Positions 21,421-59,389 of a stretch of DNA of 64,000 nt are shown here, one piece after another. How positions within the stretch are numbered: the first letter of the stretch is position 1; the number at the start of each line of letters is the position of its first letter. The stretch is from positions 27,830 to 91,829 of the IMG/VR virus record IMGVR_UViG_3300012205_000277. One strand, written 5' to 3'. The DNA comes from a virus. Under the pieces are notes generated by a model that saw only the letters and a list, made by a program, of their open reading frames with translations, was not told where the DNA came from and ran no database searches. A program made the position numbers and the translations under genes.

Positions 21421-21502
21421 TTTGACGTGCCTGCCACACCCAGCCCTGGCTCGACCGGTCTTTCCATGCCTTTGCATTCCAAGGCCCGCCTGCAGCGTCA
21501 AA
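21421..21502 (-). repeat. 5-nt-period array closed by an inverted repeat
   Basis: + strand: accca gccct ggctc gaccg gtctt tccat gcctt tgcat tccaa ggccc gcctg; ends TTTGACG/CGTCAAA. Confidence 0.75.
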
Positions 21503-21944
21503 CTCTTATCGCAATTCTATCCATCTGTGTGCCGCGTTCTTGCGAAGCCACTCCCCGGCTTTTTGATAAAGCGGATTGTTCGGTTCGCGGCTGTAGCCGT
21601 AGCCGTCGGTCACACCGTTCCGGTAGGACCACTTCATGCAGAAGCTGGCTACGATGATCCATGTCAAATTCCCAATGAGTATCCAACCGAATATTTCAGT
21701 CATCGTCGTCCCTTTCATTTCTTGTCGAGGCAGGCTGTAGGATCGAGTCCGCAATTCGGGACCGGGACATGCCGCATGAGATAACCCCAAACCAAACCGG
21801 AAGCGATGATACAGAAATAGATCAGCAAAGCCTTCTTCGTCTCTTTCTTCATGGCTTACCCCCCCTTATCGCGTGTAGGCCAAAAGACCCAAACTATGGC
21901 GAGGTTCACAAAGCCTACGACCATCAGTATCGCCAATAGCCACT

Positions 21945-22136
21945 CTACCCCGCCCATTGTGGCCTTCGCTTTGCCAGAGCCTTCTGCACGGTCGTCGCAT
22001 GAATGCACAAGAGCTTCGCAATTTCCGGTTTGCTGACCCCGCGCGCGGCGAGACGGCGAATCTCGTCGGCGCGGGCATCGGCATTCTTCTTTTTGCGGGC
22101 TGCGACAGCGGTTCTCTTTGTGAGTTGATAGTCCAT
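21945..22136 (-). CDS. HTH protein
   Basis: GVSKPEIAKLLCIHATTVQKAL. Confidence 0.75.
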   Translation of the reverse strand: MDYQLTKRTAVAARKKKNADARADEIRRLAARGVSKPEIAKLLCIHATTVQKALAKRRPQWAG

Positions 22137-23068
22137 CAGGCTGTCGCGGAAGTTCCCAGATTGATCTTGCGGCCGCCCCAGAGGATTTTGCTGATGGCGG
22201 CAGCTTCGGCGGCGTCAGTGCCAGCGGCTACGAGGTCCGTGACGGCATCGGCTTCACTGTTCAGCCGGCCTTCGGTCATGCCGATGAGCGATCCGATTAC
22301 TTCGCAAATCAGGTTCGGATGCTGGAGCGTGATGACGCATTCGTTGCCGAACAGGCGCACGTACTGTTCCCTGGCATTATCGAAGCCGCCTACCGGCCAG
22401 AGCACGAAAACGTTGTAGAGCTGCTTGAGCGCCAGGATGGTTGTTTCAATCGGAATCGATCCAGGAAGGCTGTCGCCAAACACTGACCGGGCATGTTCCG
22501 CGCTGGTTGTCGAGAAAATGGGTTCATCGGCATACATGAAGAAGTAACCCTTCCGGTTGCGCTTCTCCATGCAATCGAGGATGGTCTTATTGGCGGCCGC
22601 ATACATGACGAGATCGTAGGACTCCCCCTGATTGCCGCCACCTTGTCCGACCAGCATCAGCTTGCGAATGTGCTCGTCGATCCGGTTGTCGGATTCGAAG
22701 TCTGAGATTTGTGTAGATTTGTCCCGGACCACGGTCCAATCGTCGTTGGCGGCAATCGCTACCTGGGGATCGGGAAGATAGCGCTCAAGCAGCGCCATGA
22801 GGTTCGGAAGTTTCTGCTGCGCTTCGCGCGCCCGCGAGATGTTCGATCCAGTGACGTCCAAGCAAAGCAGGACGGCATTCGATTCCGGGTGCTCCGTGCT
22901 GTCGCGGCTCTCGAGTTTCCCGAACGGCTTTGCTTTGATCCGTTTCGGATCGAGGTCCGGGTGGATGGTTGTCGCTGTTTGCGTGTATTCGAAATCATCC
23001 TTCCCGGTGAGTCTGCGCGTTGATGCCGCGCGTGAGTAGGTAGGTGCATCAAAACGTCCACTGCCCAT
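22136..23068 (-). CDS. von Willebrand factor A (vWA) domain protein
   Basis: MGSGRF start after AAGGAG; ESRDSTEHP, LDVTGS (MIDAS-like), GGGGNQGESY, GYFFMYADE. Confidence 0.85.
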   Translation of the reverse strand: MGSGRFDAPTYSRAASTRRLTGKDDFEYTQTATTIHPDLDPKRIKAKPFGKLESRDSTEHPESNAVLLCLDVTGSNISRAREAQQKLPNLMALLERYLPDPQVAIAANDDWTVVRDKSTQISDFESDNRIDEHIRKLMLVGQGGGNQGESYDLVMYAAANKTILDCMEKRNRKGYFFMYADEPIFSTTSAEHARSVFGDSLPGSIPIETTILALKQLYNVFVLWPVGGFDNAREQYVRLFGNECVITLQHPNLICEVIGSLIGMTEGRLNSEADAVTDLVAAGTDAAEAAAISKILWGGRKINLGTSATA

Positions 23069-23118
23069 GTGAATTCTCCTTTTAATTTTGGCCCGTTTGG
23101 CTACGCGACCGGAAAAAT

Positions 23119-23343
23119 TTATTCCAAGACAATTCTGCGTCCTGAGAAAAACGGTTCCACCGTCGGTGGCTGCTTGCTCAGCCAAATGCGGCTCCCTTCG
23201 GCAAGACAATCACAGTCGGGCGGGCCGATAACGGCCGGATGATAGTTCTCGCAATGCGCCGGCCCGCGCTCCCGGTGAAGCGCGAATCCAATGTCATTCA
23301 TTTCGTTGACTTCCTTGATGGTGAAATCGGAATACCGGATCAT
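23119..23343 (-). CDS. Small hypothetical protein ending in RRIVLE
   Basis: GAGG RBS; coupled to the upstream gene. Confidence 0.6.
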   Translation of the reverse strand: MIRYSDFTIKEVNEMNDIGFALHRERGPAHCENYHPAVIGPPDCDCLAEGSRIWLSKQPPTVEPFFSGRRIVLE

Positions 23344-23654
23344 TTCTCACCTCGTCCCGGTTTTGGCGCGTCCTTTCCAGGACATTTCCTTGCAGAGTTC
23401 CGCATACTTGATCCTGCACAATCGGTGCGGACAATACTCCGAATTTAGCCATGTCGAGATATGATCAGGCTCCAGGAGTGGCCAGTTGATCCAGCTTGGC
23501 TGCCCGCACATGCACAGAATTCGTTCATTTCCATCGGAATTGACCACACTGGCTTTCTGCCAGATCCAATCGTTCTTCTTACAGTGCGCGCAAACAATGG
23601 GCTTCGAATCCACGTTGACGGATCCAAACATCGGAACGTGGATAAAGAGAGCCG

Positions 23655-23945
23655 TCATTTCTCGCCGATGGCCCGGATAGGCGCTCCCAATTGCTTCCCG
23701 GTACCGAGCCCCTTCGATTCAAAGAAGGTCCCGGTCTTTTTAGGGTCGGCCAGCGCCGGCAACCGTTCCTGGCCGACTATGTTCAGGAATTGGAGCTCCA
23801 CCTTGGCCGAATTGATGATTTGCGCGGCCACGTGAGCTACCGCTTCGGCGCGCTCAACCGGCATGGGATTGTCTTTGTCTTTTAGCTTTTCGAGCGCGTC
23901 GAACAAATGATCGCGCAAGTCTGACATCTTCCTGTTGTTTTCCAT
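23655..23945 (-). CDS. Conserved phage protein, partner of the upstream HNH
   Basis: SDLRDHLFDALEKL..RAEAVAHVAAQIINSAKVE. Confidence 0.75.
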   Translation of the reverse strand: MENNRKMSDLRDHLFDALEKLKDKDNPMPVERAEAVAHVAAQIINSAKVELQFLNIVGQERLPALADPKKTGTFFESKGLGTGKQLGAPIRAIGEK

Positions 23946-24750
23946 ACTTTTCCTTTCTTTCTCGGATTTGCCGTTTCAGTGCTCCGGTCAAAAGAATCAC
24001 TTTCCTGAGTTCGGGAGGATAGCTTGGCCGGTGAATGGAATTGCGCCGCATCAGCTCCGCCCTGGTGATGCATTCCAGGTTCGTAAGAACGGTATTCTGT
24101 TTGTTGCCATCCTTGAAAACCACGGCATGCCCTGGAGGAACCTTTCCATGCGCCTCTTTCCATATGCGAAGATGCACAAATTCCCATACTTTCTGATTGC
24201 CGAATCCGCCCAGGACTCGATCGGCAATCTTCCTTCGCAGGTAGCCGTCGGAATCCGCCTTGATGGTTCCGACTGGAAACCAGTTGCGTGACCGCTGGCC
24301 TTTCTTGAAGGTTGTCTCCGCCATGCGGCCATGCGCCAAGGAATACCCTGGACGTCGCAAGCCTTTGTTATGAGGAACCTGCCCGGGCTTGAACCGCGTT
24401 TGAACGCTGCACCGGCGCAAGCGCGCGCTTTCGGCTGCGTGAAGAGTCTCTGTGTATGCTTTTGTTTTATGTAGATGCAATATGCCCGCTTGAGCATGGA
24501 CGCTATTGAGAGTGCGGCCCAAGAGGCCAGCCACTTCGGCACAAGGCAAGTGCGGATAGATTTTACGGAACTGTGCATGATCGGCAGCCGTCCAAGGCTT
24601 GCAGCCAAATCTTTTTCTGATTCCAAGTTTCTCCGCGCGGCTCTTGATCGAATCATCGGACCGGTGAAGTTTGGCGGCAAGTTCTTTCCGGGGATGATCG
24701 GGATAGAGCCGACATAAAATCAGGTCTTCACGTTTTGACCAGTATCGCAT
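23854..24750 (-). CDS. HNH endonuclease-domain protein
   Basis: WSKRED/WTAAD repeats, FKPGQVPHNKG, HLRIWKEAHG..VVFKDGNKQN..NLECITRAE. Confidence 0.85.
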   Translation of the reverse strand: MRYWSKREDLILCRLYPDHPRKELAAKLHRSDDSIKSRAEKLGIRKRFGCKPWTAADHAQFRKIYPHLPCAEVAGLLGRTLNSVHAQAGILHLHKTKAYTETLHAAESARLRRCSVQTRFKPGQVPHNKGLRRPGYSLAHGRMAETTFKKGQRSRNWFPVGTIKADSDGYLRRKIADRVLGGFGNQKVWEFVHLRIWKEAHGKVPPGHAVVFKDGNKQNTVLTNLECITRAELMRRNSIHRPSYPPELRKVILLTGALKRQIRERKEKYGKQQEDVRLARSFVRRARKAKRQRQSHAG

Positions 24751-25484
24751 GGTGCCTCCTTTCTTTTTTGAGCGCGGCTCGCGTTCGCTTCGACAACCAC
24801 CACATAGCGTCAATTTCAGCATCCGTACGCGGCGGTGGCGGCGGCGGCTTTGGCGGCCGGGGACCGCCAAGAGCACGCCAGAGAATTTCTTGATTCCGCG
24901 GACTGCGCCTGGTTCTCAATTTTTGAATCCTTCGAGGGCGGTCAAAGCCGCTTGGATCTGGCCTTGGAATCTACTGATAACTTCCAAATCGCCGGATGCC
25001 CTGGAATTCATGCAGGTAAATCGGTGCCAGGCTTGGCGTTCCGGCAAAGTTAATTTATCGAATATGGCTAGGATCAATTTCATTTCCGGGGAATCATCCG
25101 GCAGTCTTGCGCCTGTGGCGAGGTTGAGCATCGCTGGCTTGCATCCGGGACAGGCATCCTCGTAGGTTTCCCAGCTCATGATTGATTCCCTAGGGCCTCT
25201 AGTGCGCGAAGCACCACTTGCCCATATTCCGTGGCGGTGCCAAAGCCGCTTTCGACGCAGGCAATCCGTTTTTGCCAGTAGGGGTCGTCCAGTAAATCCC
25301 GCAGGGCTTTCTCTAGCGCTGATTGTTTCGAAAGCCAGCGTGCGATAATTGGCTCGATTCGGTCGATATCCTGGGCAATGATTTCATCGAGCTGGCCGAT
25401 GGCGTCTACGCTGGCTGCTTCTGGTAATTCTGGATCGCGCAATGCATTGAAGAGTTCCTGCCGTTGCTTGTCCGATAGTTTCAT

Positions 25485-27174: not shown

Positions 27175-27175
27175 T

Positions 27176-27285
27176 GACTTACCTGTCCCTGCCGTACAAT
27201 TCCAAGAACGCGAACACCGCGCCTAACCCAAGCGGGCCAGTTCGTGTCTTGTCCCGCCGAGGCTGGACATGCCATGACTAACCGG
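27176..27285 (-). repeat. 5-nt-period array (about 22 units) between promoter and gene
   Basis: + strand: gactt acctg tccct gccgt ... gccta accca agcgg gccag ttcgt gtctt gtccc gccga ggctg gacat gccat gacta accgg. Confidence 0.75.
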
Positions 27286-27294
27286 TCCGGGTTA

Positions 27295-27323
27295 AGATTA
27301 TAACTTAGGGTCTAATTTGTCAA
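27295..27323 (-). promoter_or_regulatory. Sigma70-type promoter
   Basis: TTGACA-17 nt-TAATCT, with an overlapping TATAAT. Confidence 0.7.
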
Positions 27324-27329
27324 TGATTT

Positions 27330-29212: not shown

Positions 29213-29725
29213 TTACGGCTGTAGCAACCGCTGGATATATAATTTTGCCTTATCGTAGCCCCAGGCATGAATCGAATGGTCAATCTTGGTGACGTCCTCA
29301 TTCGGGAACACAACGTCAGCCGGGCCAGCGACTGACGGTTCCCAATTTATTGCGATGACTCGCTTGCGCCAGCCCAAAGTGACTCGGCCTTTCCTTGTGG
29401 TTATGGTGTACCACGGCTTCTGGCTGCAACAAGGCTGGGAGCAATAGCCGTTGGGAATTTCCTCTACGAAAATTAGCCCGGTAAGCGAAAAGGGTTCAAA
29501 TAGGCCAACCAGTGCTTGGCGTTCAACTTCCCGTTCGACGGCAACATCGGGATCGAGCCGCGCTGTTTCCAGCTCCAATGCTTCTACCAGTTTGTCGGCT
29601 AAGTCCCTCGCGGCGCGTTCATCGGCTTCGGTTACCGGCCGATGCAAAGAAACGCGAACCTCGATGCCCAAAGCATGCTTGCCAATGATTTCCTGCTTGT
29701 AAAGTGTCTTGTATTCGAGATTCAT
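29213..29725 (-). CDS. Conserved phage hypothetical protein
   Basis: EEIPNGYC..PWY..GRVTLGWRKRVIAINW..DVTK..IHAWGY. Confidence 0.75.
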   Translation of the reverse strand: MNLEYKTLYKQEIIGKHALGIEVRVSLHRPVTEADERAARDLADKLVEALELETARLDPDVAVEREVERQALVGLFEPFSLTGLIFVEEIPNGYCSQPCCSQKPWYTITTRKGRVTLGWRKRVIAINWEPSVAGPADVVFPNEDVTKIDHSIHAWGYDKAKLYIQRLLQP

Positions 29726-30609
29726 GGTCGTCCTTTCTTTTTATGCTTCAAGTCCTCAGCAATATTGCGACGAATTGTTCGCCAAGCTTTTTGCGCGCGC
29801 AAACTGCCGATGCTCGAAGCACCGCCGCATGTCGGACAAATGGTCAGGTGTGGCAGTTTGCATTTCAACTCCGAACACTTCCACGGCTTGTGGCATTTCT
29901 CGCAATCGTGGGTGTGTACTGGAAGGATTTTCAAATCCCCATTTGGAAGACCTTCCCGTTTATCACCGAGGAGCAATTCCACTTGCAATTTGTTTAGCGC
30001 GTCCCGAACATTGAATTGAACGCTCTTGGCCAGATCGCAGAAATTTACAGGATATTTGCCGCCCTCTTTCTTGTAAATCGCGCCTAAGTAGGCTCCAAGT
30101 TCTTCTTCCAGGGTTTCGGCATCGAATTCGAGCACGCTGCACCTGGACATAAATCGAGGCTCCAGATTCAATCTGCTGTTGGCTGTGAAAATGAAAATGG
30201 TTTTCGGCGGCCATGCGGTCGAATCCATTTTGGACAGGAGAGAGATTTGGGCCGCTGGCGACATTTTATCGGCCTCGTGAATAGAGAGGATATGCCAGTC
30301 GCAGGTTTTGCCGGTATCGAAATTGAATGCGCCGTATCTGCACATTTCCGTCTCGCGCCTTACCCGGTCCAGGTCGCATTCAGCGCTCGGGACTTCGTGA
30401 AGTTCGGCATTGATTTCTTCGGCGATGGCCTGTACCAGGGCCGTTTTCCCAAGGCCAGATCCGCCGAGAAAGAACCAGCTATGTTCGAATGGTTTCTTGA
30501 CGAATGGTTCGATCGTGCGTTTCACCTTCATCAATCCGATGAATTCGCTCACTCGCCGCGGGCGGTATTTCTCCGTTAGTGGCTCGGGGAACGGCAAGCT
30601 TTTCGTCAC
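29722..30609 (-). CDS. Clamp-loader-like AAA+ ATPase (RFC/DnaX type)
   Basis: LTEKYRP, GGSGLGKT, IHEADKM, FIFTAN, SRC motif, VRDALNKLQ. Confidence 0.88.
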   Translation of the reverse strand: MTKSLPFPEPLTEKYRPRRVSEFIGLMKVKRTIEPFVKKPFEHSWFFLGGSGLGKTALVQAIAEEINAELHEVPSAECDLDRVRRETEMCRYGAFNFDTGKTCDWHILSIHEADKMSPAAQISLLSKMDSTAWPPKTIFIFTANSRLNLEPRFMSRCSVLEFDAETLEEELGAYLGAIYKKEGGKYPVNFCDLAKSVQFNVRDALNKLQVELLLGDKREGLPNGDLKILPVHTHDCEKCHKPWKCSELKCKLPHLTICPTCGGASSIGSLRAQKAWRTIRRNIAEDLKHKKKGRP

Positions 30610-30968
30610 TTGAGCTGCCCTCCCTGACCCCAAAGATTGACGAAGACGCGCTTGCCATGCTCATCTTTCATCATGTTTGGGTGGGCGATGTCCTGACCCT
30701 GACAGTCATAATCGTAGATTTCCACGGTCATGCCGGGCGGGATGTTGTGAATCCTATGAATGACACCGCCATTCATGACGACGCGGATTGGCTTCTGTGT
30801 AGGAACTTCATGGCCCTTGCAATGCGTCCATTGGCCGGATTGCACCTGTGGACAATTTTTGTTGTCGCCGTGATGCATGGTGGTCATGTGTTTCTCCCTT
30901 TGGACGCTTAGGCCGCGCCCTGGCTTGAATCTTAGACACTAACATAAGTCCCGGCAGGGCAGGCGCGG

Positions 30969-31394
30969 TTAATCCTGCAAGACAATTGATCGCGTCGTTT
31001 GCAATAAAAATATCGGCTCGATCGGAGCACTGCTTGTGATTTTGCGGCCGGCCCGGAGGAATGCCTGTTCCGCCGCAGGAGTCGTCCGGCTCTTATCCAC
31101 TGGTTCCTTGGACAAGATCAGGTCGATGTGCTTGCACGCGATCTTCGGCGCTTTGTGAAACTTCCAGAACGGGCAGGAACATGCCCAGGTCCCGTCCGCT
31201 TTCATGGAAACTACGTATTGGGCATCGGAAGTCATGCTGGTGACTTGCCAACGCGCGATGTACTGCGCACTCGGTTTCAGTTTCGTAACCATTTTGTTTC
31301 TCCCTTTTTTTGATTCCAACCACTGTTTCACTTCGGCTTTGATGGCTGCATCAATTGTCTGCATCGTCTTCGGGAAGATTTTGTGCTTCTTCAT
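30969..31394 (-). CDS. SWIM zinc-finger protein
   Basis: WACSCPFW..CKHI; second strong in-frame start at 31292. Confidence 0.8.
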   Translation of the reverse strand: MKKHKIFPKTMQTIDAAIKAEVKQWLESKKGRNKMVTKLKPSAQYIARWQVTSMTSDAQYVVSMKADGTWACSCPFWKFHKAPKIACKHIDLILSKEPVDKSRTTPAAEQAFLRAGRKITSSAPIEPIFLLQTTRSIVLQD

Positions 31395-34242: not shown

Positions 34243-34330
34243 GTTTGCCGTTCCTGCCTTGCCGGGCCAAGGCGGGCCTTTTCGCAACTTTGCCCGCCTC
34301 TCCTTCCTTTCCTAGCCTGCCACGGCAAAC
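34243..34330 (-). repeat. 5-nt-period array closed by a 9-bp inverted repeat
   Basis: GTTTGCCGT...ACGGCAAAC enclosing gcctt gccgg gccaa ggcgg gcctt ttcgc aactt tgccc gcctc tcctt. Confidence 0.75.
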
Positions 34331-35401: not shown

Positions 35402-35630
35402 TTTGATTCTCCCTTTGCATCGGATTCCAGGCTCGATGTTGCCCACAAAAATCGTCAAACTGTCACGTCGAACTGTTCCAAGAGGTCGGCGATGGCTTCC
35501 TCTTCGGTCGCTCCTTTTCCAATGATTGCCTTCGAATCAGGATCTCCACCATCGATTGTGCCGTCCACATAGGCTTGCCAGTCGTAGTTGCGCGTTGGAA
35601 TTGGAGGACAGACGAATACGGTTTTGATGT

Positions 35631-42810: not shown

Positions 42811-42885
42811 GGGCGGACTTTTCGGCGTCCGCCCTAGCCGTTCCTGCGCTGCCATTCCTTACCCCATCGAATCGGGCCCGGTCTA
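42811..42885 (-). repeat. Hairpin plus 5-nt-period array upstream of ku
   Basis: GGGCGGAC/GTCCGCCC, then gccgttcct gcgct gccat tcctt acccc atcga atcgg gcccg gtcta. Confidence 0.65.
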
Positions 42886-43239
42886 AACGCTCCGTGCCTG
42901 CCGCGCCTGTGTTTCAACTTCGCTATACAGCTTTTTTGCTACTTCTGGCTTTTCCTGAATCGCCATAACTGCGGACCGGATCGCGGCCACTTGTTCTGGC
43001 GTCCAAGTGAGCTGAAACTTCCGGTGAATCTGCAAGTCTCCGGCATCAGTCAGAAATGCAAAAGCGCACCACTTGCCCTTTCGCAATTTGTAATACACGA
43101 GCCGCTTGCCAAACATTCCTTTATCTACTTCTCCCAAATCCCCGACGACGGTTTTCAGCCAAAGCAGCCGATAGATATCGGGTCCGCAGGGTACGGCGTA
43201 ATAACCATCAGGCAACACGATGGCTCCTTTTCCTTTAGG

Positions 43240-45888: not shown

Positions 45889-46074
45889 TCAGCCTCGGGC
45901 CTTGGCCTGGACTGGTTCCGTCAAATGCATTTCAGGGCTGTCCACATCTTTCGTGACAATCCCGAGTGCTTCTTCGAGCGGTTTTGTCGCGGCTTTGCAT
46001 GCTTTCCCACGAAAACCTTTCGTGGTGATTTTGACGCTGCCATCCGGTGCCACATCAATCAGTATTTCTTCCAT
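45889..46074 (-). CDS. DUF2997 family protein
   Basis: IDVAPDGSVKITTKGFRGKACKAATKPLEEALG. Confidence 0.88.
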   Translation of the reverse strand: MEEILIDVAPDGSVKITTKGFRGKACKAATKPLEEALGIVTKDVDSPEMHLTEPVQAKARG

Positions 46075-46121
46075 TGCGTTTTCTCCCTTCGAATTTTTGG
46101 AATCGATCGTGACCTGGCACA

Positions 46122-46535: not shown

Positions 46536-46560
46536 AAAAGGGCGAACCGAAGTCCGCCCT
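46536..46560 (-). terminator. Terminator with UUCG loop
   Basis: GGGCGGAC-TTCG-GTTCGCCC-TTTT. Confidence 0.75.
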
Positions 46561-46562
46561 GT

Positions 46563-46627
46563 GCCCTGCCCTGTGACGCCCAGCCATAACGCACCCGTGC
46601 GCGCCTATGCTTGCCTAGCCCAGCCGA
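46563..46627 (-). repeat. 5-nt-period array (13 units) between promoter and terminator
   Basis: + strand: gccct gccct gtgac gccca gccat aacgc acccg tgcgc gccta tgctt gccta gccca gccga. Confidence 0.8.
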
Positions 46628-46631: not shown

Positions 46632-46660
46632 ATTATACCCCGGATTAAGTTATAGGGCAA
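46632..46660 (-). promoter_or_regulatory. Sigma70-type promoter
   Basis: TTGCCC-17 nt-TATAAT. Confidence 0.7.
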
Positions 46661-53785: not shown

Positions 53786-53871
53786 TGGAGGAGGATGGAA
53801 GAATCGAACTTCCGTGCTTTCACACGCCCTGGGTTTCGAGTCCAGTTGCGGGCCGTTCCGCAGCACCCTCC
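53786..53871 (-). tRNA. tRNA-Ser(CGA)
   Basis: Cloverleaf, long variable arm, loop CTCGAAA, CCA. Confidence 0.85.
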
Positions 53872-53921
53872 GATGGAGAGTGCGATGATGATCCGCGTGT
53901 CATGACTTGATTATAACAGAT

Positions 53922-54008
53922 TGGCGGAGACGGAGAGACTTGAACTCTCACAACCTTGCGGTCGCCGGTTTAGCAAACCGGTGCGTTTACCAATTCCGCC
54001 ACGTCTCC
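53922..54008 (-). tRNA. tRNA-Ser(GCT)
   Basis: Loop TTGCTAA, long variable arm, CCA. Confidence 0.92.
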
Positions 54009-54015
54009 TCCAACT

Positions 54016-54094
54016 TGGTCGGTCCGGTTGGATTTGAACCAACGACCTACGGTTTATGAGACCGTTGCTCTAAACCGGTCTGAGCTACGGACCG
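54016..54094 (-). tRNA. tRNA-Met or Ile2 (CAT)
   Basis: Loop CTCATAA, CCA. Confidence 0.9.
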
Positions 54095-54098
54095 AAAC

Positions 54099-54177
54099 TG
54101 GTGGGTGCGGTGAGATTTGAACTCACAGCCTTCTCCTTAAGAGGGAGCTGCTCTGCGCAATTAGGAGCTACGCACCC
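54099..54177 (-). tRNA. tRNA-Lys(CTT)
   Basis: Loop CTCTTAA, CCA. Confidence 0.88.
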
Positions 54178-54182
54178 AAATC

Positions 54183-54272
54183 TGGTGGGGAAGGCCGGAA
54201 TCGAACCGGCATAGCCGCCAGGGCTAGCAGTTTTACAGACTGCCGAGCTCAGCCAATTCGCTCATCTTCCCC
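54183..54272 (-). tRNA. tRNA-Tyr(GTA)
   Basis: Loop CTGTAAA, long variable arm, CCA. Confidence 0.9.
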
Positions 54273-54403
54273 GAAACTTTTCACAGTCACGCGAATCGTA
54301 CTTCCGAATTGCTTGCGCTCAGCTTTCCGGTTGGCACGCTTACGCGCCGCAATTTCTTTTCTGATTTCTATCTTGCTCTGCGTCTTCATATCACCACCAA
54401 TCT

Positions 54404-54479
54404 TAGCGGCCCTGGCAGGATTCGAACCCGCATATCTTGATTAGAACTCAAGACCGTTATCCGTTACGGTAACAGGGCC
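54404..54479 (-). tRNA. tRNA-Arg(TCT)
   Basis: CTTGA-GTTCTAA-TCAAG; 3' end is CTA rather than CCA. Confidence 0.85.
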
Positions 54480-54489
54480 ACAAAGCTTT

Positions 54490-54564
54490 TGGTCCCGCTT
54501 CGCGGAATCGAACCGCGGTCACTGGCTTTTCAGACCAGGGCTGCTTCCACTGAGCTAAAGCGGG
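54490..54564 (-). tRNA. tRNA-Phe(GAA)
   Basis: Loop CTGAAAA, CCA. Confidence 0.88.
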
Positions 54565-54574
54565 CCGTAAATTG

Positions 54575-54674
54575 TTCTAGGAGTGCCTAAGCCTTGTCCG
54601 CTGCGCTATTGGTTCGGACGCATATGCCTCACCATCCTAGCTGGTCAGCCACGCGCTACCCACCACTCCTAGAA
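54575..54674 (-). ncRNA. Non-tRNA structured RNA candidate inside the tRNA array
   Basis: 11-bp terminal stem TTCTAGGAGTG/CACTCCTAGAA with internal hairpins; no cloverleaf or CCA. Confidence 0.5.
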
Positions 54675-54676
54675 AC

Positions 54677-54753
54677 TGGCGGACCTGATGGGTTTCGAAC
54701 CCACGATCTCCACATAGACAGTGTGGCGAGGACAGCCGCTCCTCTACAGGTCC
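54677..54753 (-). tRNA. tRNA-Asp(GTC)
   Basis: CCACA-CTGTCTA-TGTGG, CCA. Confidence 0.9.
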
Positions 54754-54757
54754 AAAC

Positions 54758-54833
54758 TGGCTGGGGCGGAAGGACTCGAACCTTCAAATACCGCGTTAAC
54801 GGCGCGGCCCTGTACCGATTGAGGCACACCCCA
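54758..54833 (-). tRNA. tRNA-Asn(GTT)
   Basis: CCGCG-CCGTTAA-CGCGG, CCA. Confidence 0.88.
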
Positions 54834-55167
54834 AAACTTTTATCAATTCCGGATGATGTTCTTCTGCATGACAATTCAAACAAAGGAGCTCACACTTCTT
54901 AAGCTCCTTTTCAATCTTCGCCCAAGCCAAAATATGGCCACCGCCAACACCAAAAGATTTCTCTCCGGGATGATGGAAAATTAAAGCAGCAAAGCATTTG
55001 TCATATCCGCATCGTTGACATTTTCCACCAAGGAATTCAACGGCTTTTTGTTTCGTCCGCCGCCTCCATTCAGTAACGTAAAATATGGTGCCATGTCCTC
55101 TACAGCAAAATCTATTGTTCGCTCTTTTTCCGGATAGCTCCTTATCGCACCATTCACATTTTTTCAT
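54796..55167 (-). CDS. HNH endonuclease in the tRNA array
   Basis: LGGKCQRCGY..ALIFHH..ELKKCELLCLNCHAEEH. Confidence 0.85.
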   Translation of the reverse strand: MKKCEWCDKELSGKRANNRFCCRGHGTIFYVTEWRRRTKQKAVEFLGGKCQRCGYDKCFAALIFHHPGEKSFGVGGGHILAWAKIEKELKKCELLCLNCHAEEHHPELIKVLGCASIGTGPRR

Positions 55168-55198
55168 GGCGGCATATATTAACACATGCCGTTAATTC

Positions 55199-55282
55199 TG
55201 GTGCGCGCGAAAGGATTTGAACCTCCACGCCCGAAGGCGCTGCGTCCTAAGCGCAGTGCGTCTGCCGTTCCGCCACGCGCGC
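55199..55282 (-). tRNA. tRNA-Leu(TAG)
   Basis: CTGCG-CTTAGGA-CGCAG, variable arm, CCA. Confidence 0.92.
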
Positions 55283-55494
55283 AATCTTTTTTATGCGACT
55301 TCGCTTTGCCTTGCCGCCGCTTGCTCGTCAAATCGTTCGTCCAGGGCTCTTGTTTCTTTCCGGAATCGGCTCACGCATTTATAACAGAACCAACCGAGCG
55401 TTGTGAGTATTCCGTTGCCTGGCAATCTGTCTGTCCTGCAAAGTTTACATTTTTTAGCCGGCATCGTTCCTCAATTCTGGCCTGGGCCTATTCT

Positions 55495-55569
55495 TGGTAC
55501 CCAGCTAAGGACTCGAACCCTAATCCCTTCGGTGTAGGCGAAGTATCCTGACCGTTAGACGAGCCGGGC
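55495..55569 (-). tRNA. tRNA-Val(TAC)
   Basis: CTTCG-CCTACAC-CGAAG, CCA. Confidence 0.85.
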
Positions 55570-55576
55570 ACAAACT

Positions 55577-55771
55577 CTATTTAAAATTGGCGATGCGGTC
55601 AGTAAGGATTTTCGCATATTCACCCATCACCGCGTGCTGACGCGTCAATCTCGCGTGTTCCTCAACATCAAGAGATTTGAATGTGGCTCCCTGGAGGAAC
55701 ACGCCAAGCTTAGCGTGCTTCTCGGTCAATTCATTCAATTCCGTTACGACCCGTTCTTGATGTGGCTGCAT
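55577..55771 (-). CDS. crAss001_48-like helical-hairpin protein, candidate immune-signal sponge
   Basis: MQPHQERVVTELNEL..KL..F...RLTRQHAVMGEYAKILTDRI; AAGGAG RBS. Confidence 0.75.
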   Translation of the reverse strand: MQPHQERVVTELNELTEKHAKLGVFLQGATFKSLDVEEHARLTRQHAVMGEYAKILTDRIANFK

Positions 55772-55789
55772 ACTTTCTCCTTCAAAATC

Positions 55790-55867
55790 TGGTGAGGGCG
55801 AGAGGACTTGAACCTCCATATCATTCACGTTCGTAGCGTGAGCCGTTATCCATTACGGGACGCCCTC
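55790..55867 (-). tRNA. tRNA-Arg(ACG)
   Basis: TCACG-CTACGAA-CGTGA, CCA. Confidence 0.88.
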
Positions 55868-56076
55868 AGAAAACTTTTTTGTCCGCTTCAAATACATATC
55901 ATAAAACTTTGCCGCCGTTGGTCCATGCCAACCGATGGCATCGCCTATTTCATTCCAAGTTTTGCCCTCTGCGAGCATCCGTTCCACGGTCGGAATATGT
56001 CCTTGTTGCTCAAGGCCGAATTGAATCTGTACTCCATCAAAAACCTTGAGCAAACTCTTCAACGATTCTTTCATCC

Positions 56077-56152
56077 TGGTGGTCCCGCGCGGATTCGAAC
56101 CGCGATCGCCAGTTCCGGAAACTGGTGTCCTGTCCGGTTGGACGACGGAACC
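56077..56152 (-). tRNA. tRNA-Arg(CCG)
   Basis: CCAGT-TTCCGGA-ACTGG, CCA. Confidence 0.9.
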
Positions 56153-56260
56153 AAACTCTTAGAATATCTTGCTGGCTAAAACCAGCAGACATTCGAGCGC
56201 AATGCCAACTGCTGCGATGTACCAATAGATGTTGGCGCTACGCCATCTACTCATAAACTT

Positions 56261-56346
56261 TGGTGCGCGGTAAGAGACTCGAACTCTTACGGGTCATGCC
56301 CAACAGATTTTAAGTCTGTCGCGTCTACCACTTCCGCCAACCGCGC
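56261..56346 (-). tRNA. tRNA-Leu(TAA)
   Basis: ACAGA-CTTAAAA-TCTGT, variable arm, CCA. Confidence 0.92.
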
Positions 56347-56350
56347 ATTC

Positions 56351-56436
56351 TGGTGCCGGAGGAGAGATTCCCACTCTCACGCCGCTAAGGCGTCCGCTTT
56401 TGAAGCGGATGCGTCTGGTAGTTCCGCCACTCCGGC
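56351..56436 (-). tRNA. tRNA-Leu(CAA)
   Basis: TCCGC-TTCAAAA-GCGGA; atypical T loop TGGGAAT; CCA. Confidence 0.82.
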
Positions 56437-56910
56437 AAATCTGTTTTTAATGCCAAAATTATCCGTCTGTGAATGACAGTTCGGACATGCAAATCGTAAA
56501 TTTTCGGGACGGTCATCCCATTTCCATCCGTTCTTATGGTCAACATGGAGCGTCAATGGCTTGTTGTTCCAAACTGGAAGTTGACCACAAATTTCACATT
56601 TATATTCTCGTCCACTATCCCTCAGTGCGCGTCTTCGTCGCGGTGCTCGTACGGGCTCAGCATTTTGGTCATGTAATATCAAAATTTCTTGCCAAGGTTG
56701 TTTTGGAGAACCACCTTTATATCTCAGCCCGCAATTGGCGGCTTGTCCTAAAAAATGAGTTGTGTCAATTTCCAGTCGCGCGATGCGTCGTTTTAGATAT
56801 AAGTATGAACCGCCAGCAATTCGTAGACCAAGCCGAACCATAACCTGTGCCATTGACGTACTCGGTTTTACGGCATCTTGAAGCATTTCCTTACTGTATT
56901 TTGAATGCAT
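56377..56910 (-). CDS. HNH endonuclease in the tRNA array
   Basis: YKCEICG..WNNKPLTLHVDHKNG..DDRPENLRFACPNCHSQT. Confidence 0.92.
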   Translation of the reverse strand: MHSKYSKEMLQDAVKPSTSMAQVMVRLGLRIAGGSYLYLKRRIARLEIDTTHFLGQAANCGLRYKGGSPKQPWQEILILHDQNAEPVRAPRRRRALRDSGREYKCEICGQLPVWNNKPLTLHVDHKNGWKWDDRPENLRFACPNCHSQTDNFGIKNRFAGVAELPDASASKADALAA

Positions 56911-56944
56911 TTTAAATCTCCATTCCGTCAAGGGCCCGAACTCT

Positions 56945-57020
56945 TGGTGGGCGGAGTTGGTCTCGAACCAACCGCCGCAGCCTTATCAAGACTGTGCTCT
57001 ACCTGATGAGCTATCCGCCC
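56945..57020 (-). tRNA. tRNA-Ile(GAT)
   Basis: Loop TTGATAA, CCA. Confidence 0.9.
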
Positions 57021-57031
57021 ACAAAATCTTT

Positions 57032-57106
57032 TGGCAGGCCCGGAGAGACTCGAACTCTCGTTAACGGGTTTGGAGGCCGTTGTCCTAGCCGCTAGACGAC
57101 AGACCT
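57032..57106 (-). tRNA. tRNA-Trp(CCA)
   Basis: Loop CTCCAAA, CCA. Confidence 0.88.
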
Positions 57107-57113
57107 GCCGAAC

Positions 57114-57187
57114 TGGAGCGGACGCGGAGGATCGAACTCCGTTGTTCACCTTGGAAGAGTGATACCCAACCAATGGGCCACGCCCGC
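57114..57187 (-). tRNA. tRNA-Gly(TCC)
   Basis: GCGGGCG acceptor, loop CTTCCAA, TCCA end. Confidence 0.88.
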
Positions 57188-57191
57188 AAAC

Positions 57192-57265
57192 TGGAGCGGA
57201 TGAGCGGAATCGAACCGCTGTACCGAGAATGGCGTTCTCGGGTCTTTCCACTAGACGACACCCGC
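57192..57265 (-). tRNA. tRNA-Gly(GCC)
   Basis: CGAGA-ACGCCAT-TCTCG, TCCA end. Confidence 0.85.
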
Positions 57266-57329
57266 CAAGATCTTCACCGGATTGCCGCTGTCGCGCCTCC
57301 TTAACGCCGCCGATCCGGTTACTGCAACT

Positions 57330-57404
57330 TGGGGCCGAGTGAGAGATTCGAACTCCCGACGCGCAGTTTACAGAACTGCCGTTCTACCGCTGAACTAACC
57401 CGGC
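57330..57404 (-). tRNA. tRNA-Thr(TGT)
   Basis: GCAGT-TCTGTAA-ACTGC, CCA. Confidence 0.82.
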
Positions 57405-57410
57405 GAAATT

Positions 57411-57487
57411 TGGGGCCAGGAGAGAGAGTCGAACTCTCGTCTTCGCATTACCAATGCGATGCTCTAAACCGACTGAGCTATCCCGGC
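57411..57487 (-). tRNA. tRNA-Thr(GGT)
   Basis: TCGCA-TTGGTAA-TGCGA, CCA. Confidence 0.92.
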
Positions 57488-57672
57488 AAACTAGTACGGC
57501 CCTATGCTGCCAGCAGCTACTCTGCCGGCAACCGGCTCGCGCTCCTCGATCCAGAGCAGGATATCGCCAAGAACAGCAAGCAACATCTTCTCGCGCTCCG
57601 GTCCCGCTGGCAGATCGTGGATCCGATTGTATTTCTCCCGGATGTCTTTTGCCGTCATGGTTGCCTCCAATT

Positions 57673-57747
57673 TGGAGCTGGCTCGCGGACTCGAACCGCG
57701 GTCCTGGCGTTACGAGTGCCGAACTCTGCCCGTTGAGCTAAGCCAGC
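57673..57747 (-). tRNA. tRNA-Thr(CGT)
   Basis: Loop CTCGTAA, CCA. Confidence 0.85.
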
Positions 57748-57757
57748 AAAAAACTTT

Positions 57758-57833
57758 TGGTTCCCCGGGTTGGCCTCGAACCAACATTTCAAGATCCAGA
57801 ATCTCGCGTCCTGCCTACTTGAACGACCGGGGA
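57758..57833 (-). tRNA. tRNA-Gln(CTG)
   Basis: Loop TTCTGGA, CCA. Confidence 0.88.
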
Positions 57834-57846
57834 AGTGACGCAAACA

Positions 57847-57920
57847 TGGATGGGAGGCAGGGATTCGAACCCCGATACTGAGATCCAAAATCTCAAGTCC
57901 TGCCGTTGGACGACCTCCCA
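57847..57920 (-). tRNA. tRNA-Gln(TTG)
   Basis: TGAGA-TTTTGGA-TCTCA, CCA. Confidence 0.9.
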
Positions 57921-57925
57921 AAACT

Positions 57926-58001
57926 TGGTGGGACCGGCGAGACTCGAACTCGCGCTAGTCCGCTTAAAAGGCGGATGCTTTACCATCTAAGCTACGGTCC
58001 C
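57926..58001 (-). tRNA. tRNA-Lys(TTT)
   Basis: TCCGC-CTTTTAA-GCGGA, CCA. Confidence 0.92.
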
Positions 58002-58002
58002 G

Positions 58003-58076
58003 TACCCCGAATCAGAATCGAACTGACATCTCAGCCTTGAAAGGGCCGTGTGCTAAACCGTTTGCACCATCGGGGC
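58003..58076 (-). tRNA. tRNA-Glu(TTC)
   Basis: Loop CTTTCAA; no encoded CCA; abuts tRNA-Lys. Confidence 0.88.
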
Positions 58077-58088
58077 ATTGCACAAAAT

Positions 58089-58164
58089 TGGTCGCCGCGG
58101 TGGGATTTTAACCCACGATCCCTTCTACCCGAAAGAAGTGCCTTGAACGCTAGGCCACGCGGCG
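58089..58164 (-). tRNA. tRNA-Pro(CGG)
   Basis: CTTCT-TTCGGGT-AGAAG, CCA. Confidence 0.85.
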
Positions 58165-58168
58165 GAAC

Positions 58169-58245
58169 TGGTGGCATCGGTCGGATTCGAACCGACAATC
58201 TCTTGCTCCCAAAGCAAGCGGGTTGAACCGTTTCCCTACGACGCC
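58169..58245 (-). tRNA. tRNA-Pro(TGG)
   Basis: CTTGC-TTTGGGA-GCAAG, CCA. Confidence 0.88.
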
Positions 58246-58254
58246 AATAAATTT

Positions 58255-58330
58255 TGGGGCGACGGATGAGAGTCGAACTCACTAGAAGATGCTCCACAGG
58301 CATCCGCCTCACCGTTTGGCTTCCGTCACC
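58255..58330 (-). tRNA. tRNA-His(GTG)
   Basis: GATGC-CTGTGGA-GCATC; G-1/C73; CCA. Confidence 0.9.
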
Positions 58331-58368
58331 ACAGAAACTCCATTCCGCTCAACACAACTTTAAAAATC

Positions 58369-58444
58369 TGGTGGACGCGATCGGATTCGAACCGACTGCC
58401 TCGGGGATGCAAAGCCCGCGCTCTCCCAAGTGAGCTACGCGCCC
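58369..58444 (-). tRNA. tRNA-Ala(TGC)
   Basis: G3:U70 pair, loop TTTGCAT, CCA. Confidence 0.92.
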
Positions 58445-58486
58445 AAACTAGACTAGCACGACTGGGAACTTATGGGGAAAGTTTAT

Positions 58487-58741
58487 TTATATTTTCCCTG
58501 ACGGGAATTCTTTCGAGGACGTCGGCTGGACATATCGGGTGAGTGGGTAAGCTATGAGCAGTTCATTCCGGCCAACGGAGAAGTTGGCGCCATGCCGATT
58601 GGCATCGGGATTGGGATTCGGCTGAATATGATTCGCCGGCGAGACCGGGCCGTTCACAAAAGCGTTGCCGGCCACAGCAATGACGCCAACGCGTGAATCC
58701 AAAACTGGATTTCGGAAATCTGGTTGACTGTAATTCGGCAT
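58487..58741 (-). CDS. Small NxxQxDxR-repeat protein
   Basis: MPNYSQPDFR...LLIAYPLTRYVQP; GGAGG RBS. Confidence 0.75.
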   Translation of the reverse strand: MPNYSQPDFRNPVLDSRVGVIAVAGNAFVNGPVSPANHIQPNPNPDANRHGANFSVGRNELLIAYPLTRYVQPTSSKEFPSGKI

Positions 58742-58750
58742 TTCATCCTC

Positions 58751-59023
58751 CTAATGGGGATTGTTGCTTGTTCCCATCGGCCCTTTTAGCCCGCTGACGT
58801 TTGTCTGAATATTTGGCTGAACGTACGCAGGCAGCGGCCATGTCAAAGCGATCGGGTTTTTCGTTGCCGTTCCCGGCGTTGGCACGATCGTCGGCTTTCG
58901 GTAATCGACTTGCGAATGATTGCCGGCGTGTGCAGGTCCTGGTATCAACGCATTGATGCCTGTCTGAACCGTTATTTGCGAATTTTTTCGAGTATCAGTA
59001 TCGGGTTGAATGTAATTTCCCAT
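58751..59023 (-). CDS. Small NxxQxDxR-repeat protein
   Basis: MGNYIQPD..NHSQVDYR..LTWPLPAYVQP. Confidence 0.75.
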   Translation of the reverse strand: MGNYIQPDTDTRKNSQITVQTGINALIPGPAHAGNHSQVDYRKPTIVPTPGTATKNPIALTWPLPAYVQPNIQTNVSGLKGPMGTSNNPH

Positions 59024-59031
59024 GCGACCCT

Positions 59032-59301
59032 CTATGGTTGATTGTATCGCGGGATCGGCCAGCTCAAAAGCAATACGTTCGTGCCGACAGGATAAGTCGC
59101 TACTAGAGGACTTGTATCCGGATCGCGGTAATCGTTTTGCGTGTAATTTGGCGGTCGGCTGGAATCGAGAATCTCCAACGGATTTAATTTTGCCGGATGA
59201 TCCTCTGTCAGCGGGCTTAAAGGGGCGCGATAATCGGTCTGTGTGCTATTGCCGGACCAGGTCCCACTGTTCAAGCCCATTGGATTTAAATTGAAGGACA
59301 C
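59032..59301 (-). CDS. Small NxxQxDxR-repeat protein
   Basis: NSTQTDYR..PPNYTQNDYR..SPLVATYPVGTNVLLLSWPIPRYNQP; GTG start after GGAG. Confidence 0.75.
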   Translation of the reverse strand: MSFNLNPMGLNSGTWSGNSTQTDYRAPLSPLTEDHPAKLNPLEILDSSRPPNYTQNDYRDPDTSPLVATYPVGTNVLLLSWPIPRYNQP

Positions 59302-59314
59302 GTATCTCCACTAT

Positions 59315-59389
59315 GCCGTTCCTGCCTTGCCACGTTCGGGACTTACCCTGCCAATGCTCGTCGGGACTGGCCGTGCCTAGACTTGCCGT
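59315..59389 (-). repeat. 5-nt-period array upstream of the 59301 start
   Basis: gccgttcctgccttgcc head, then ttcgg gactt accct gccaa tgctc gtcgg gactg gccgt gccta gactt gccgt. Confidence 0.75.

What the first reader, a model, noticed from the sequence alone, without database searches (positions are those of the whole stretch)
21421..59389. Six intergenic arrays with 5-nt periodicity, several next to promoters or terminators
Seen at 21421-21502, 27176-27285, 34243-34330, 42837-42885, 46563-46627 and 59315-59389. Each has roughly 8-22 degenerate pentamers; on the transcribed minus strand nearly every fifth base is G (consensus NNGGC). Three share the + strand head GCCGTTCCTGC, and two are closed by terminal inverted repeats. 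At 46.6 kb the order is promoter, array, UUCG terminator, gene. At 27.2 kb it is promoter, array, start codon. At 21.4 and 42.8 kb the array directly precedes a hairpin. Known: Bacillus TRAP binds (G/U)AG triplets with 2-nt spacers, the same 5-nt period, to control attenuation. Inference: binding tracks for an oligomeric RNA- or DNA-binding protein that controls antitermination or translation.
Basis: partly seen in the sequence, partly recalled or inferred. Interest (0 to 1): 0.8.

Follow-up and report, generated by a model that had tools for sequence, protein, structure and literature searches.

The report
Dispersed VIPR guide-RNA genes in phage
The six five-base-periodic tracts are genes for VIPR guide RNAs (a CRISPR-like phage system first described in 2026), scattered across a soil phage genome, and each sits beside the gene whose version in a rival sister phage it spells out.

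Summary
All six tracts have G at every fifth base on one strand (79 of 94 units), far above shuffles. The 92-kb record holds at least nine such arrays.

They are not TRAP-like attenuators. They fit the vrRNAs of VIPR systems (bioRxiv 10.64898/2026.04.26.720920, .720927, 2026.10.15.759431):
- 10-22 GGY-NN pentamers
- a conserved 3' motif (GGCAGG-MAYGG)
- sigma-70 promoters or terminators at several arrays

The published code (NN read, every third target base skipped) holds here. Only the 1-nt skip gives 18-20 of 20 matches. These are wobble-aligned and fall on either strand.

A sister phage (G001, 75-91% nt identity) has a guide at the homologous position that matches a DUF2997 gene in this window 20/20. 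Another matches 25/28. Seven of ten guide-target pairs lie within about 650 nt of the guide gene or its homologous position.

No vipr gene is in this record or in G001. Close relatives carry a Cas7-like Vipr (phrog_4652) flanked by arrays, just upstream of the tail-tube gene, where the G001 contig breaks.

This scan has met VIPR in many other genomes. Verdict: a known kind in an unusual genome-wide dispersed layout, with each guide linked to its target locus.

The parts
It lies between terL and a 255-aa gene, antisense to both, and is preceded by TTGACA.
   Evidence: 3' motif GGCAGGGCAGGCAT
21421..21502 (-). vrRNA array A4 (site 1), 16 units, closed by TTTGACG/CGTCAAA. It is followed by hairpin 21419-21392 and then the PurA/PurZ-like gene.
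21136..21168 (+). Weak near-match of A4 (7 of 11 NN) inside the adenylosuccinate-synthetase-like gene, antisense and wobble-aligned.
   Evidence: local shuffle p = 0.10
27176..27296 (-). vrRNA array A5 (site 2), about 22 units, after TTGACA(27323-27318)-15-TATAAT(27302-27297). It runs into the SD/start of a DUF5131 gene. No target was found.
30739..30780 (+). Site in this window matched 25 of 28 nt by sister-phage guide B13 (G001 63736-63825). The only open frame is the wobble-aligned minus-strand one (ORF 30606-30887).
30911..30990 (+). Degenerate remnant array that keeps the tail CGGCAGGGCAGGCGCGG. It is positionally homologous to the intact B13 of G001.
34243..34330 (-). vrRNA array A6 (site 3), 17 units, closed by GTTTGCCG/CGGCAAAC. 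It starts right after the stop of the WGR/ATP-dependent ligase gene. The homologous array in G001 has the same ends and a different interior.
42833..42906 (-). vrRNA array A7 (site 4), 14 units. It overlaps the end of the upstream 111-aa gene.
42811..42834 (-). Terminator-like hairpin after A7, upstream of the Ku gene (41952-42785).
43193..43222 (+). Own-allele near-match of A7 (16 of 20 nt) in the 111-aa gene. The G001 allele matches better (8 consecutive NN, 17 of 20).
46563..46627 (-). vrRNA array A8 (site 5), 13 units. In other soil metagenome contigs this stretch is not colinear with the window (skipped, or possibly replaced) while the flanks fit.
   Evidence: joints 46560>46647 and 46559>46623
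46632..46660 (-). Sigma-70-type promoter TTGCCC-17-TATAAT driving A8.
46539..46560 (-). Intrinsic terminator (UUCG loop, U tract) ending the A8 transcript of about 90 nt.
46004..46033 (+). Site matched 20 of 20 nt (10 consecutive NN) by sister-phage guide B8 (G001 48897-48966). It lies in the DUF2997 gene 45889-46134 (-), wobble-aligned.
59315..59389 (-). vrRNA array A9 (site 6), 14-15 units. TTGACA lies at 59422-59417. It ends in GGCAAGGCAGGAACGGC.
58706..58735 (-). Near-match of A9 (18 of 20 nt over 10 units; 20 of 28 over the whole guide) at codons 3-12 of the 84-aa gene 58487-58741. Same sense, NN = codon positions 1-2.
   Evidence: (0 of 300 shuffles)

Best explanation
The arrays are genes for VIPR guide RNAs (vrRNAs).

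Expression: each is transcribed in the G-rich direction, some from their own sigma-70 promoters and some with the upstream operon. Several end at their own terminator hairpin.

Mechanism, taken from the published VIPR work and inferred here: a small Cas7-like Vipr protein polymerises on the RNA, one protomer per pentamer. It buries GGY and presents the two variable bases. The string of NN dinucleotides then pairs with double-stranded DNA while skipping every third base. The complex binds the target gene and blocks its transcription.

What this phage lineage adds:
- The guides are not clustered beside vipr. They are spread over the whole genome.
- Each lies within a few hundred bases of the gene whose allele in a sister phage it spells.
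- The resident allele carries mismatches.

The likely use is exclusion of closely related phages during co-infection or superinfection.

The vipr gene is not in this window or record. By synteny with relatives it should lie about 32 kb beyond the window's right end, next to the tail-tube gene.

Shown here: periodicity, conserved tail motif, the skip-1 code, cross-matches, linkage to targets, and a Cas7-fold Vipr in relatives. Inferred: expression, Vipr binding, silencing, and the presence of vipr in this very genome.
For: (1) Anatomy fits the published definition of 9-16 YNNGG repeats plus an invariant 3' part in an RNA of about 100 nt (10.64898/2026.04.26.720920). Here there are 10-22 units. 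A 3' motif with invariant CAGG (consensus GGCAnGGCAGGCACGG) occurs in all 15 arrays aligned from this phage and G001. Promoters and terminators are placed as expected.

(2) The code holds. For 275 ten-unit guide windows scanned against G000+G001, skip-1 gives best scores of 17-20 in 24 windows and 18 or more in 7. Skip-0 and skip-2 never exceed 16. Reversed or shuffled unit order gives 6 windows at 17 or more and at most one at 18.

(3) Individual matches:
- G001 guide B8 to this window: 20/20.
- G001 guide B13 to this window: 25/28.
- A7 to G001: 8 consecutive NN.
- A9 and A2 to nearby own genes: 18/20 and 17/20, with 0 of 300 local shuffles reaching these scores.

(4) In the eight matches whose frame was examined (A2, A4, A7 on both alleles, A8, A9, B8, B13), NN falls on codon positions 1-2. 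They occur on either strand, as published.

(5) Seven of ten distinct pairs scoring 17 or more lie within about 650 nt of the guide or its homologous position.

(6) The 17-mer at the 3' end of A6 and A9 finds unrelated viral contigs with long pentamer arrays. Each of these contigs has a protein of about 210 aa beside the arrays. That family (phrog_4652, more than 3,700 homologs) folds at pLDDT 82 and matches Csm3/Cmr4/Cas7-11 at Foldseek probability 1.0.

(7) Close relatives L143 and L144 carry this Vipr (E = 6.5e-83), flanked on both sides by arrays, about 1.8 kb upstream of the tail-tube gene. The G001 and L142 contigs start inside those arrays.

(8) Guide interiors vary while flanks are kept. 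A6 and its G001 counterpart share their ends only. Metagenome contigs are not colinear with the window across the A8 array, while the flanks fit.
Against: - No Vipr/RAMP gene was detected in the 92-kb record or in the 65-kb sister contig by PF03787, phrog_4652, my 24-sequence HMM, hhalign or motif search. Its presence in this genome rests on synteny with a third relative.
- No RNA data exist for this phage, so transcription and RNA ends are predictions.
- Four of the nine arrays (A1, A3, A4, A5) have no significant target in the sequence at hand, and A6 and A8 are only marginal.
- A9 matches its own genome better (18/20) than the sister's allele (16/20). This fits self-regulation as well as it fits rival targeting.
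- Two arrays (A5, A9) run straight into a start codon without a terminator.
Confidence: 0.85

Rival explanations
1. Orphan (solo) vrRNAs of a VIPR-null phage. The phage has no vipr and its guides hijack the Vipr protein of a co-infecting rival or a resident prophage, as published for satellites and for 346 vipr-deleted SUSP1-family phages.
For: No vipr was found in 92 kb of this record or in 65 kb of the sister contig. Solo vrRNAs are documented (10.64898/2026.10.15.759431).
Against: Relatives L143 and L144 carry vipr exactly where the G001 and L142 contigs break inside arrays. The gap in the assemblies therefore explains the absence. Nine or more guide genes with their own promoters seem a large investment without a dependable protein.
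Confidence: 0.2
2. Self-regulation. The guides bind the phage's own neighbouring genes through partial matches and tune their transcription in cis, as a temporal switch. They would not be aimed at rivals.
For: A9 (18/20) and A2 (17/20) have their genome-wide best matches in their own genome, 400-650 nt away. A4, A7 and A8 have weaker own-allele matches.
Against: Whole-guide identity to self is 69-71% (22/32 for A2, 20/28 for A9). This is below the 80% used in print to call a target. The best matches of all are across genomes: B8 scores 20/20 on G000 but at most 15/20 anywhere in its own G001, and B13 scores 25/28 on G000.
Confidence: 0.12
3. One reading: leader-RNA tracks for a TRAP-like ring protein that controls the adjacent terminators or translation starts.
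For: 5-nt period. Array-hairpin-gene order at 21.4, 42.8 and 46.6 kb.
Against: The commonest triplet is GGC (39 of 140 units), not (G/U)AG. Arrays A1, A2 and A3 lie antisense to their neighbouring genes and have no downstream gene to control. In the MFE folds the arrays and the hairpins fold apart. The NN code matches coding DNA, which this model does not predict.
Confidence: 0.02

Closest known systems
VIPR systems (Vipr + vrRNA), experimental reference type II of Escherichia phage SUSP1 and a Pseudomonas fulva prophage (bioRxiv 10.64898/2026.04.26.720920; structures in 10.64898/2026.04.26.720927)
   Same: GGY-NN pentamer repeats in the published range. A conserved 3' part. The 1-nt-skip code. 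Wobble-aligned targets on either strand. Phage-borne. A Cas7-like protein of about 210 aa beside arrays in relatives.
   Different: Here the guides are spread over more than 80 kb as single genes, in intergenic gaps of replication, repair and structural modules. In the published systems they flank vipr. The 3' part is a short GGCAGG-MAYGG motif, usually followed by a GC hairpin, and not the roughly 40-nt pseudoknot tail of the SUSP1 clade. The best targets are alleles of neighbouring genes in a sister phage, rather than satellites, prophage switches or vipr. Near-self matches exist.
Solo (orphan) vrRNAs of F5 satellites and of vipr-deleted SUSP1-family phages (bioRxiv 10.64898/2026.10.15.759431)
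   Same: Single vrRNA genes far from any vipr (more than 20 kb away or none on the contig). Self-match scores are lower than match scores to rivals.
   Different: The published solo guides sit at the former VIPR locus or in satellites, and they target vipr, other vrRNAs, satellites or host REP decoys. Here the lineage appears to be VIPR-positive, and the guides sit beside the loci they match.
Class 1 CRISPR crRNA-Cas7 backbones (Csm3/Cmr4)
   Same: A RAMP fold polymerising on a guide RNA with a fixed register. The fold match has Foldseek probability 1.0.
   Different: 5-nt rather than 6-nt register. Only 2 of 5 guide bases pair. No repeat-spacer array and no Cas1/Cas2. Each guide has its own promoter or terminator.
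Bacillus TRAP / trp leader
   Same: 5-nt spacing of a protein-bound triplet on single-stranded RNA next to a terminator.
   Different: Different triplet. No sign of alternative pairing between array and hairpin. Variable bases that carry a code. Arrays that have no downstream gene.

Membership tests
VIPR vrRNA | Tandem GGY-NN (YNNGG) pentamers, about 9-16 units, tolerating internal degeneracy | tested here: met
   10-22 units per array. G1 83%, G2 55%, C3 45% over 140 units. Period-5 excess over shuffles.
VIPR vrRNA | GGY kept while NN is hypervariable among related elements | tested here: met
   A6 and its G001 counterpart share both ends but differ inside. A9 and B7 differ mainly at NN. Arrays are present or absent between the two phages. 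Soil contigs are not colinear across the A8 array, with identical flanks. No formal per-column test was run.
VIPR vrRNA | Invariant 3' tail after the repeat tract | tested here: met
   Invariant CAGG within GGCAnGGCAGGCACGG in 15 of 15 arrays aligned. The same motif is visible in the arrays beside vipr in L143. No pseudoknot tail like that of SUSP1 was sought or seen.
VIPR vrRNA | Targets follow the 1-nt-skip rule, wobble-aligned, on either strand | tested here: met
   Only skip-1 gives scores of 18-20 out of 20. Skip-0 and skip-2 reach at most 16, and the unit-order controls give at most one window at 18. NN falls on codon positions 1-2 in A2, A4, A7, A8, A9, B8 and B13 matches.
VIPR vrRNA | Expressed as a discrete small RNA of about 100 nt that co-purifies with Vipr | not testable with these tools
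   Only predictions are available: promoters before A1, A2, A3, A5 and A8, and terminators after A1, A7 and A8. No RNA run holds this sequence.
VIPR system | A Vipr protein (minimal RAMP of about 20 kDa with G-loop and thumb) encoded by the same element | tested here: inconclusive
   Absent from G000 and G001. Both are incomplete (CheckV 60% and 43%). It is present in close relatives L143 and L144 (E = 6.5e-83), between arrays and about 1.8 kb upstream of the tail-tube gene, which is where G001 and L142 begin. The family has a Cas7 fold.
VIPR system | An accessory vap gene next to vipr | not tested
   In L143, about 600 nt between the arrays downstream of vipr (roughly 8310-8910) are not array-like. 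Their ORFs were not examined.
TRAP-type attenuation leader | About 11 (G/U)AG triplets separated by 2-3 nt | tested here: not met
   Commonest triplets are GGC (39), GGA (12), GCA (12) and GGT (10). GAG and TAG are not among the twelve commonest triplets.
TRAP-type attenuation leader | The binding track overlaps an antiterminator that competes with the terminator of a downstream gene | tested here: not met
   In the MFE folds the arrays and the hairpins fold separately, and z-scores outside the closing stems are close to 0. A1, A2 and A3 have no downstream gene in their orientation.

The most novel reading that the evidence does not exclude
In this lineage each guide gene is physically linked to the locus it attacks. 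The guide sits beside a resident allele that carries escape mismatches, while the sister phage's allele matches (20/20 and 25/28 in the two natural genomes compared). Such guide-plus-immune-allele pairs would behave as dozens of independent allelic-exclusion cassettes. They could spread between related phages by recombination, much as intron-less homing-endonuclease genes do. That would make VIPR a driver of mosaic phage evolution and not only a weapon against satellites.
Probability: 0.4. Interest if true: 0.7.

Novelty: new variant of a known kind. Interest (0 to 1): 0.55.

Why it matters
VIPR was described only in 2026, from loci where the guides flank the vipr gene and from solo guides at deleted VIPR loci.

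This soil phage shows a third layout: many single guide genes spread through the genome, each next to its target locus. A natural pair of sister phages has guides that hit each other's alleles but not their own.

This gives a ready-made test of VIPR as a weapon between siblings, with two natural genomes and defined guide-allele pairs.

It also warns annotators of two things:
- Five-base-periodic "leaders" far from any Cas7-like gene can be guide genes.
- Assemblies tend to break inside the array cluster that holds vipr.

Tried and rejected
Rfam and homology searches
- Rfam at gathering threshold finds only tRNAs in the window.
- There are no near or protein-level relatives among GenBank phages for the array-flanking genes. 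The exception is distant PurA-like genes of mycobacteriophages.
- Single-protein scans of viral contigs found nothing.
- The genome-contig scan gave only 44%-identical contigs from Nitrospira MAGs, without arrays or Vipr.

Alternative structural readings
- A G-quadruplex or R-loop reading was considered and dropped once the NN code proved informative.
- Beyond the closing stems of A4 and A6 and the terminators, the arrays have no significant fold.

Motif scan that failed
- A 16-mer tail pattern (GGCAGCGCAGGMACGG) gave 119+ hits in viral contigs. Of the 80 loci examined, all but G001 were chance.

Claims in earlier notes on this genome
- For A1 (own promoter) and A3 (terL allele), my local best matches lie elsewhere and are not significant against shuffles (p = 0.06 and 0.16; the sites those notes name were not scored separately).
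- A4 is weak (p = 0.10).
- A5 has no target (p = 0.77).
- A6's best hit is out of frame with the called gene.

Hunt for vipr in G000 and G001
- PF03787, phrog_4652, the 4- and 24-sequence HMMs, hhalign in global and local mode, and G-loop regexes were all negative.
- Pfam and PHROG scans of about 60 ORFs left most as orphans and none as a RAMP.

Other
- The genome search does not hold the metagenome records behind L142-L163.
- No RNA holder was listed among public runs.
- The paper's supplementary tables are not held.


Full report
**Observation.** I read the six sites and phased them on the minus strand. G occupies one phase in 13/16, 19/22, 13/18, 9/10, 12/13 and 13/15 units.

The window is the right-hand 64 kb of a 91,829-base IMG/VR record, G000. 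In that record, 12-unit windows with 11 or more in-phase C number 24, against 0.8 in dinucleotide shuffles. Periods 4 and 7 show no such excess.

A 9-of-10 scan returns exactly the six sites plus clear arrays at g9181-9250 and g18647-18730. A further array lies at window 9571-9646, and a degenerate one near window 30911-30990.

Over 140 units, position 1 is G in 83%, position 2 is G in 55%, position 3 is C in 45%, and positions 4 and 5 are free.

- The shared GCCGTTCCTGC occurs three times.
- Closing stems are present at 21.4 and 34.3 kb.
- The promoter lies at 46660-46632. The two best terminator-like hairpins of the 41-61 kb scan sit directly after the 46.6 and 42.8 kb arrays.

The arrays do not always share the strand of the neighbouring genes. 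Three are antisense, promoter-driven units.

**What it is.** I tested this.

With 11-unit windows, the genome-wide best NNx match lies within 650 nt of the array for A2, A4, A7 and A9. With nucleotide scoring, target period 3 puts four of nine best hits within 600 nt. Periods 2 and 4 put none there. Local shuffles give 0 of 300 for A2 and A9, and p = 0.013-0.047 for A7, A6 and A8. In the matches that fall in credible genes, NN or its complement sits on codon positions 1-2.

A literature search then found the explanation. VIPR systems have vrRNAs of 9-16 YNNGG repeats plus a 3' tail. They are bound by a small ancestral RAMP, Vipr. They read double-stranded DNA with the NN bases under a 1-nt-skip rule that aligns with wobble positions. 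Targets occur on either strand, and the system silences competing mobile elements (10.64898/2026.04.26.720920). Structures show Vipr protomers polymerising on the RNA and holding each GGY (10.64898/2026.04.26.720927). Solo vrRNAs without a nearby vipr are known from satellites and from vipr-deleted phages (10.64898/2026.10.15.759431).

**Independent tests of membership.**

*Shared 3' motif and the Vipr family.* The 17-mer GGCAAGGCAGGAACGGC at the 3' end of A6 and A9 occurs in 11 viral contigs. Five of them carry period-5 arrays.

In four unrelated contigs, a protein of about 210 aa lies directly beside long arrays. The family is phrog_4652, has more than 3,700 homologs and no Pfam domain. It folds with pLDDT 82 and matches Csm3, Cmr4, type VII Cas7 and Cas7-11 at Foldseek probability 1.0. 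I take it to be Vipr.

*The sister phage.* The fifth contig, G001 (65 kb), is a sister phage with 75-91% nucleotide identity and synteny over about 34 kb. It extends 32 kb beyond our record's right end and carries about 15 arrays.

All 15 arrays aligned from both phages share a 3' motif with invariant CAGG. The consensus is GGCAnGGCAGGCACGG.

*The skip rule.* I took 275 ten-unit guide windows from G000, G001 and L143 and scanned them against G000+G001. Only skip-1 yields scores of 18-20 out of 20. Skip-0 and skip-2 stop at 16. Reversed or shuffled unit order gives at most one window at 18.

**Cross-targeting and linkage.**
- G001's guide at the position homologous to A8 matches this window at 46004-46033 in 20 of 20 nt. 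The site lies in a DUF2997 gene and is wobble-aligned. The same guide's best score anywhere in its own genome is 15.
- G001's guide B13 matches window 30739-30780 in 25 of 28 nt. Its counterpart in our phage is a degenerate remnant.
- Our A7 matches the G001 allele of the upstream 111-aa gene over 8 consecutive NN, against 16 of 20 on its own allele.
- Of ten distinct guide-target pairs scoring 17 or more, seven lie within about 650 nt of the guide or its homologous position.
- In other soil metagenomes, contigs fit both flanks of A8 perfectly but are not colinear across the array itself. The joints are 46560>46647 in three runs and 46559>46623 in one, and whether other letters stand between them is not known.

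**Where is vipr?** No RAMP was found in G000 or G001 by any sequence method.

A metagenome scan with G001's tail-tube protein found 27 related loci. In the two that share 93% identity with it and reach upstream of the gene (L143, L144), a phrog_4652 Vipr (E = 6.5e-83) sits about 1.8 kb upstream of the tail-tube gene, with dense arrays on both sides. G001 and the 133-kb contig behind L142 begin inside those arrays. Assemblies evidently break in the array cluster.

By synteny, the vipr of our phage should lie about 32 kb beyond the window. This is an inference. Nothing links L143's upstream flank to G000.

**Mechanism.** Most likely (0.85 that these are vrRNAs), the arrays are transcribed as short RNAs and coated by Vipr. 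They then bind double-stranded DNA of matching genes through the NN code and repress them.

The targets seen here point to closely related phages as the opponents, with the resident alleles protected by mismatches. Whole-guide self identity is 69-71% for A2 and A9, below the 80% used in print.

Two rivals remain open. The guides may be orphans that rely on a foreign Vipr (0.2). Or partial self-matches may tune the phage's own genes (0.12). A9's better match to self keeps the second open. The TRAP-like attenuation model is not supported.

**Novelty.** The kind is known and has been met repeatedly by this scan: 499 notes in at least 368 genomes.

What I did not find in the three preprints' main texts is this layout: many single guide genes dispersed over more than 80 kb in a lineage that has vipr, each linked to the locus it matches in a sibling phage. 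Two other notes of this scan describe solo guides that spell a neighbouring gene as rivals carry it (e1-5727173, e1-5855545). I did not check them.

Noticed in passing
window 53786-58444 and 62319-62390 (-); window 11542-11756 (+): The window holds 33 tRNA genes. Thirty of them form one minus-strand cluster. Two further tRNAs have a CUA anticodon (amber suppressors, called tRNA-Pyl by ARAGORN), so the phage may read TAG as sense in some genes. TAG ends 19 of 86 long ORFs, so any recoding is not global.
   Followed up: partly
window 20247-21374 (-): Adenylosuccinate-synthetase-like gene (PF00709, E = 4e-43), 39% identical to the PurA-like/'2-aminooxy adenylosuccinate synthetase' genes of cluster C mycobacteriophages. 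It may be PurZ-type nucleotide metabolism. Companion genes were not sought.
   Followed up: partly
window 41952-42785 (-) and 34331-35458 (-): The phage encodes a Ku homologue (PF02735) and a WGR + ATP-dependent DNA ligase, i.e. a possible end-joining pair. Each lies next to a guide array.
   Followed up: no
window 59032-59301, 59459-60205 and 58487-58741 (-): Three neighbouring genes share an N-Y/F-x-Q-x-D-Y/F-R-x-P motif, seen by eye in the translations (and two of them a longer C-terminal stretch). Guide A9 spells this motif. The region homologous to 60-61 kb is too diverged from G001 for blastn.
   Followed up: no
L016:9509-11014 (G001 29509-31014): In the sister phage, a 501-aa protein and an 80-aa protein that looks by eye like an acyl carrier protein lie among three arrays (29043, 29409, 31157). 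I did not run the 501-aa protein against any family.
   Followed up: no
window 44978-45658 and 23854-24876 (-): Two HNH endonuclease genes (phrog_374 and others; PF13392) lie among the early genes. They may be free-standing homing endonucleases in the same genome that carries locus-linked guides.
   Followed up: no
L143:8310-8910: About 600 nt between the arrays downstream of vipr are not array-like and could hold the accessory (vap) gene of this VIPR clade. No ORF was called there.
   Followed up: no
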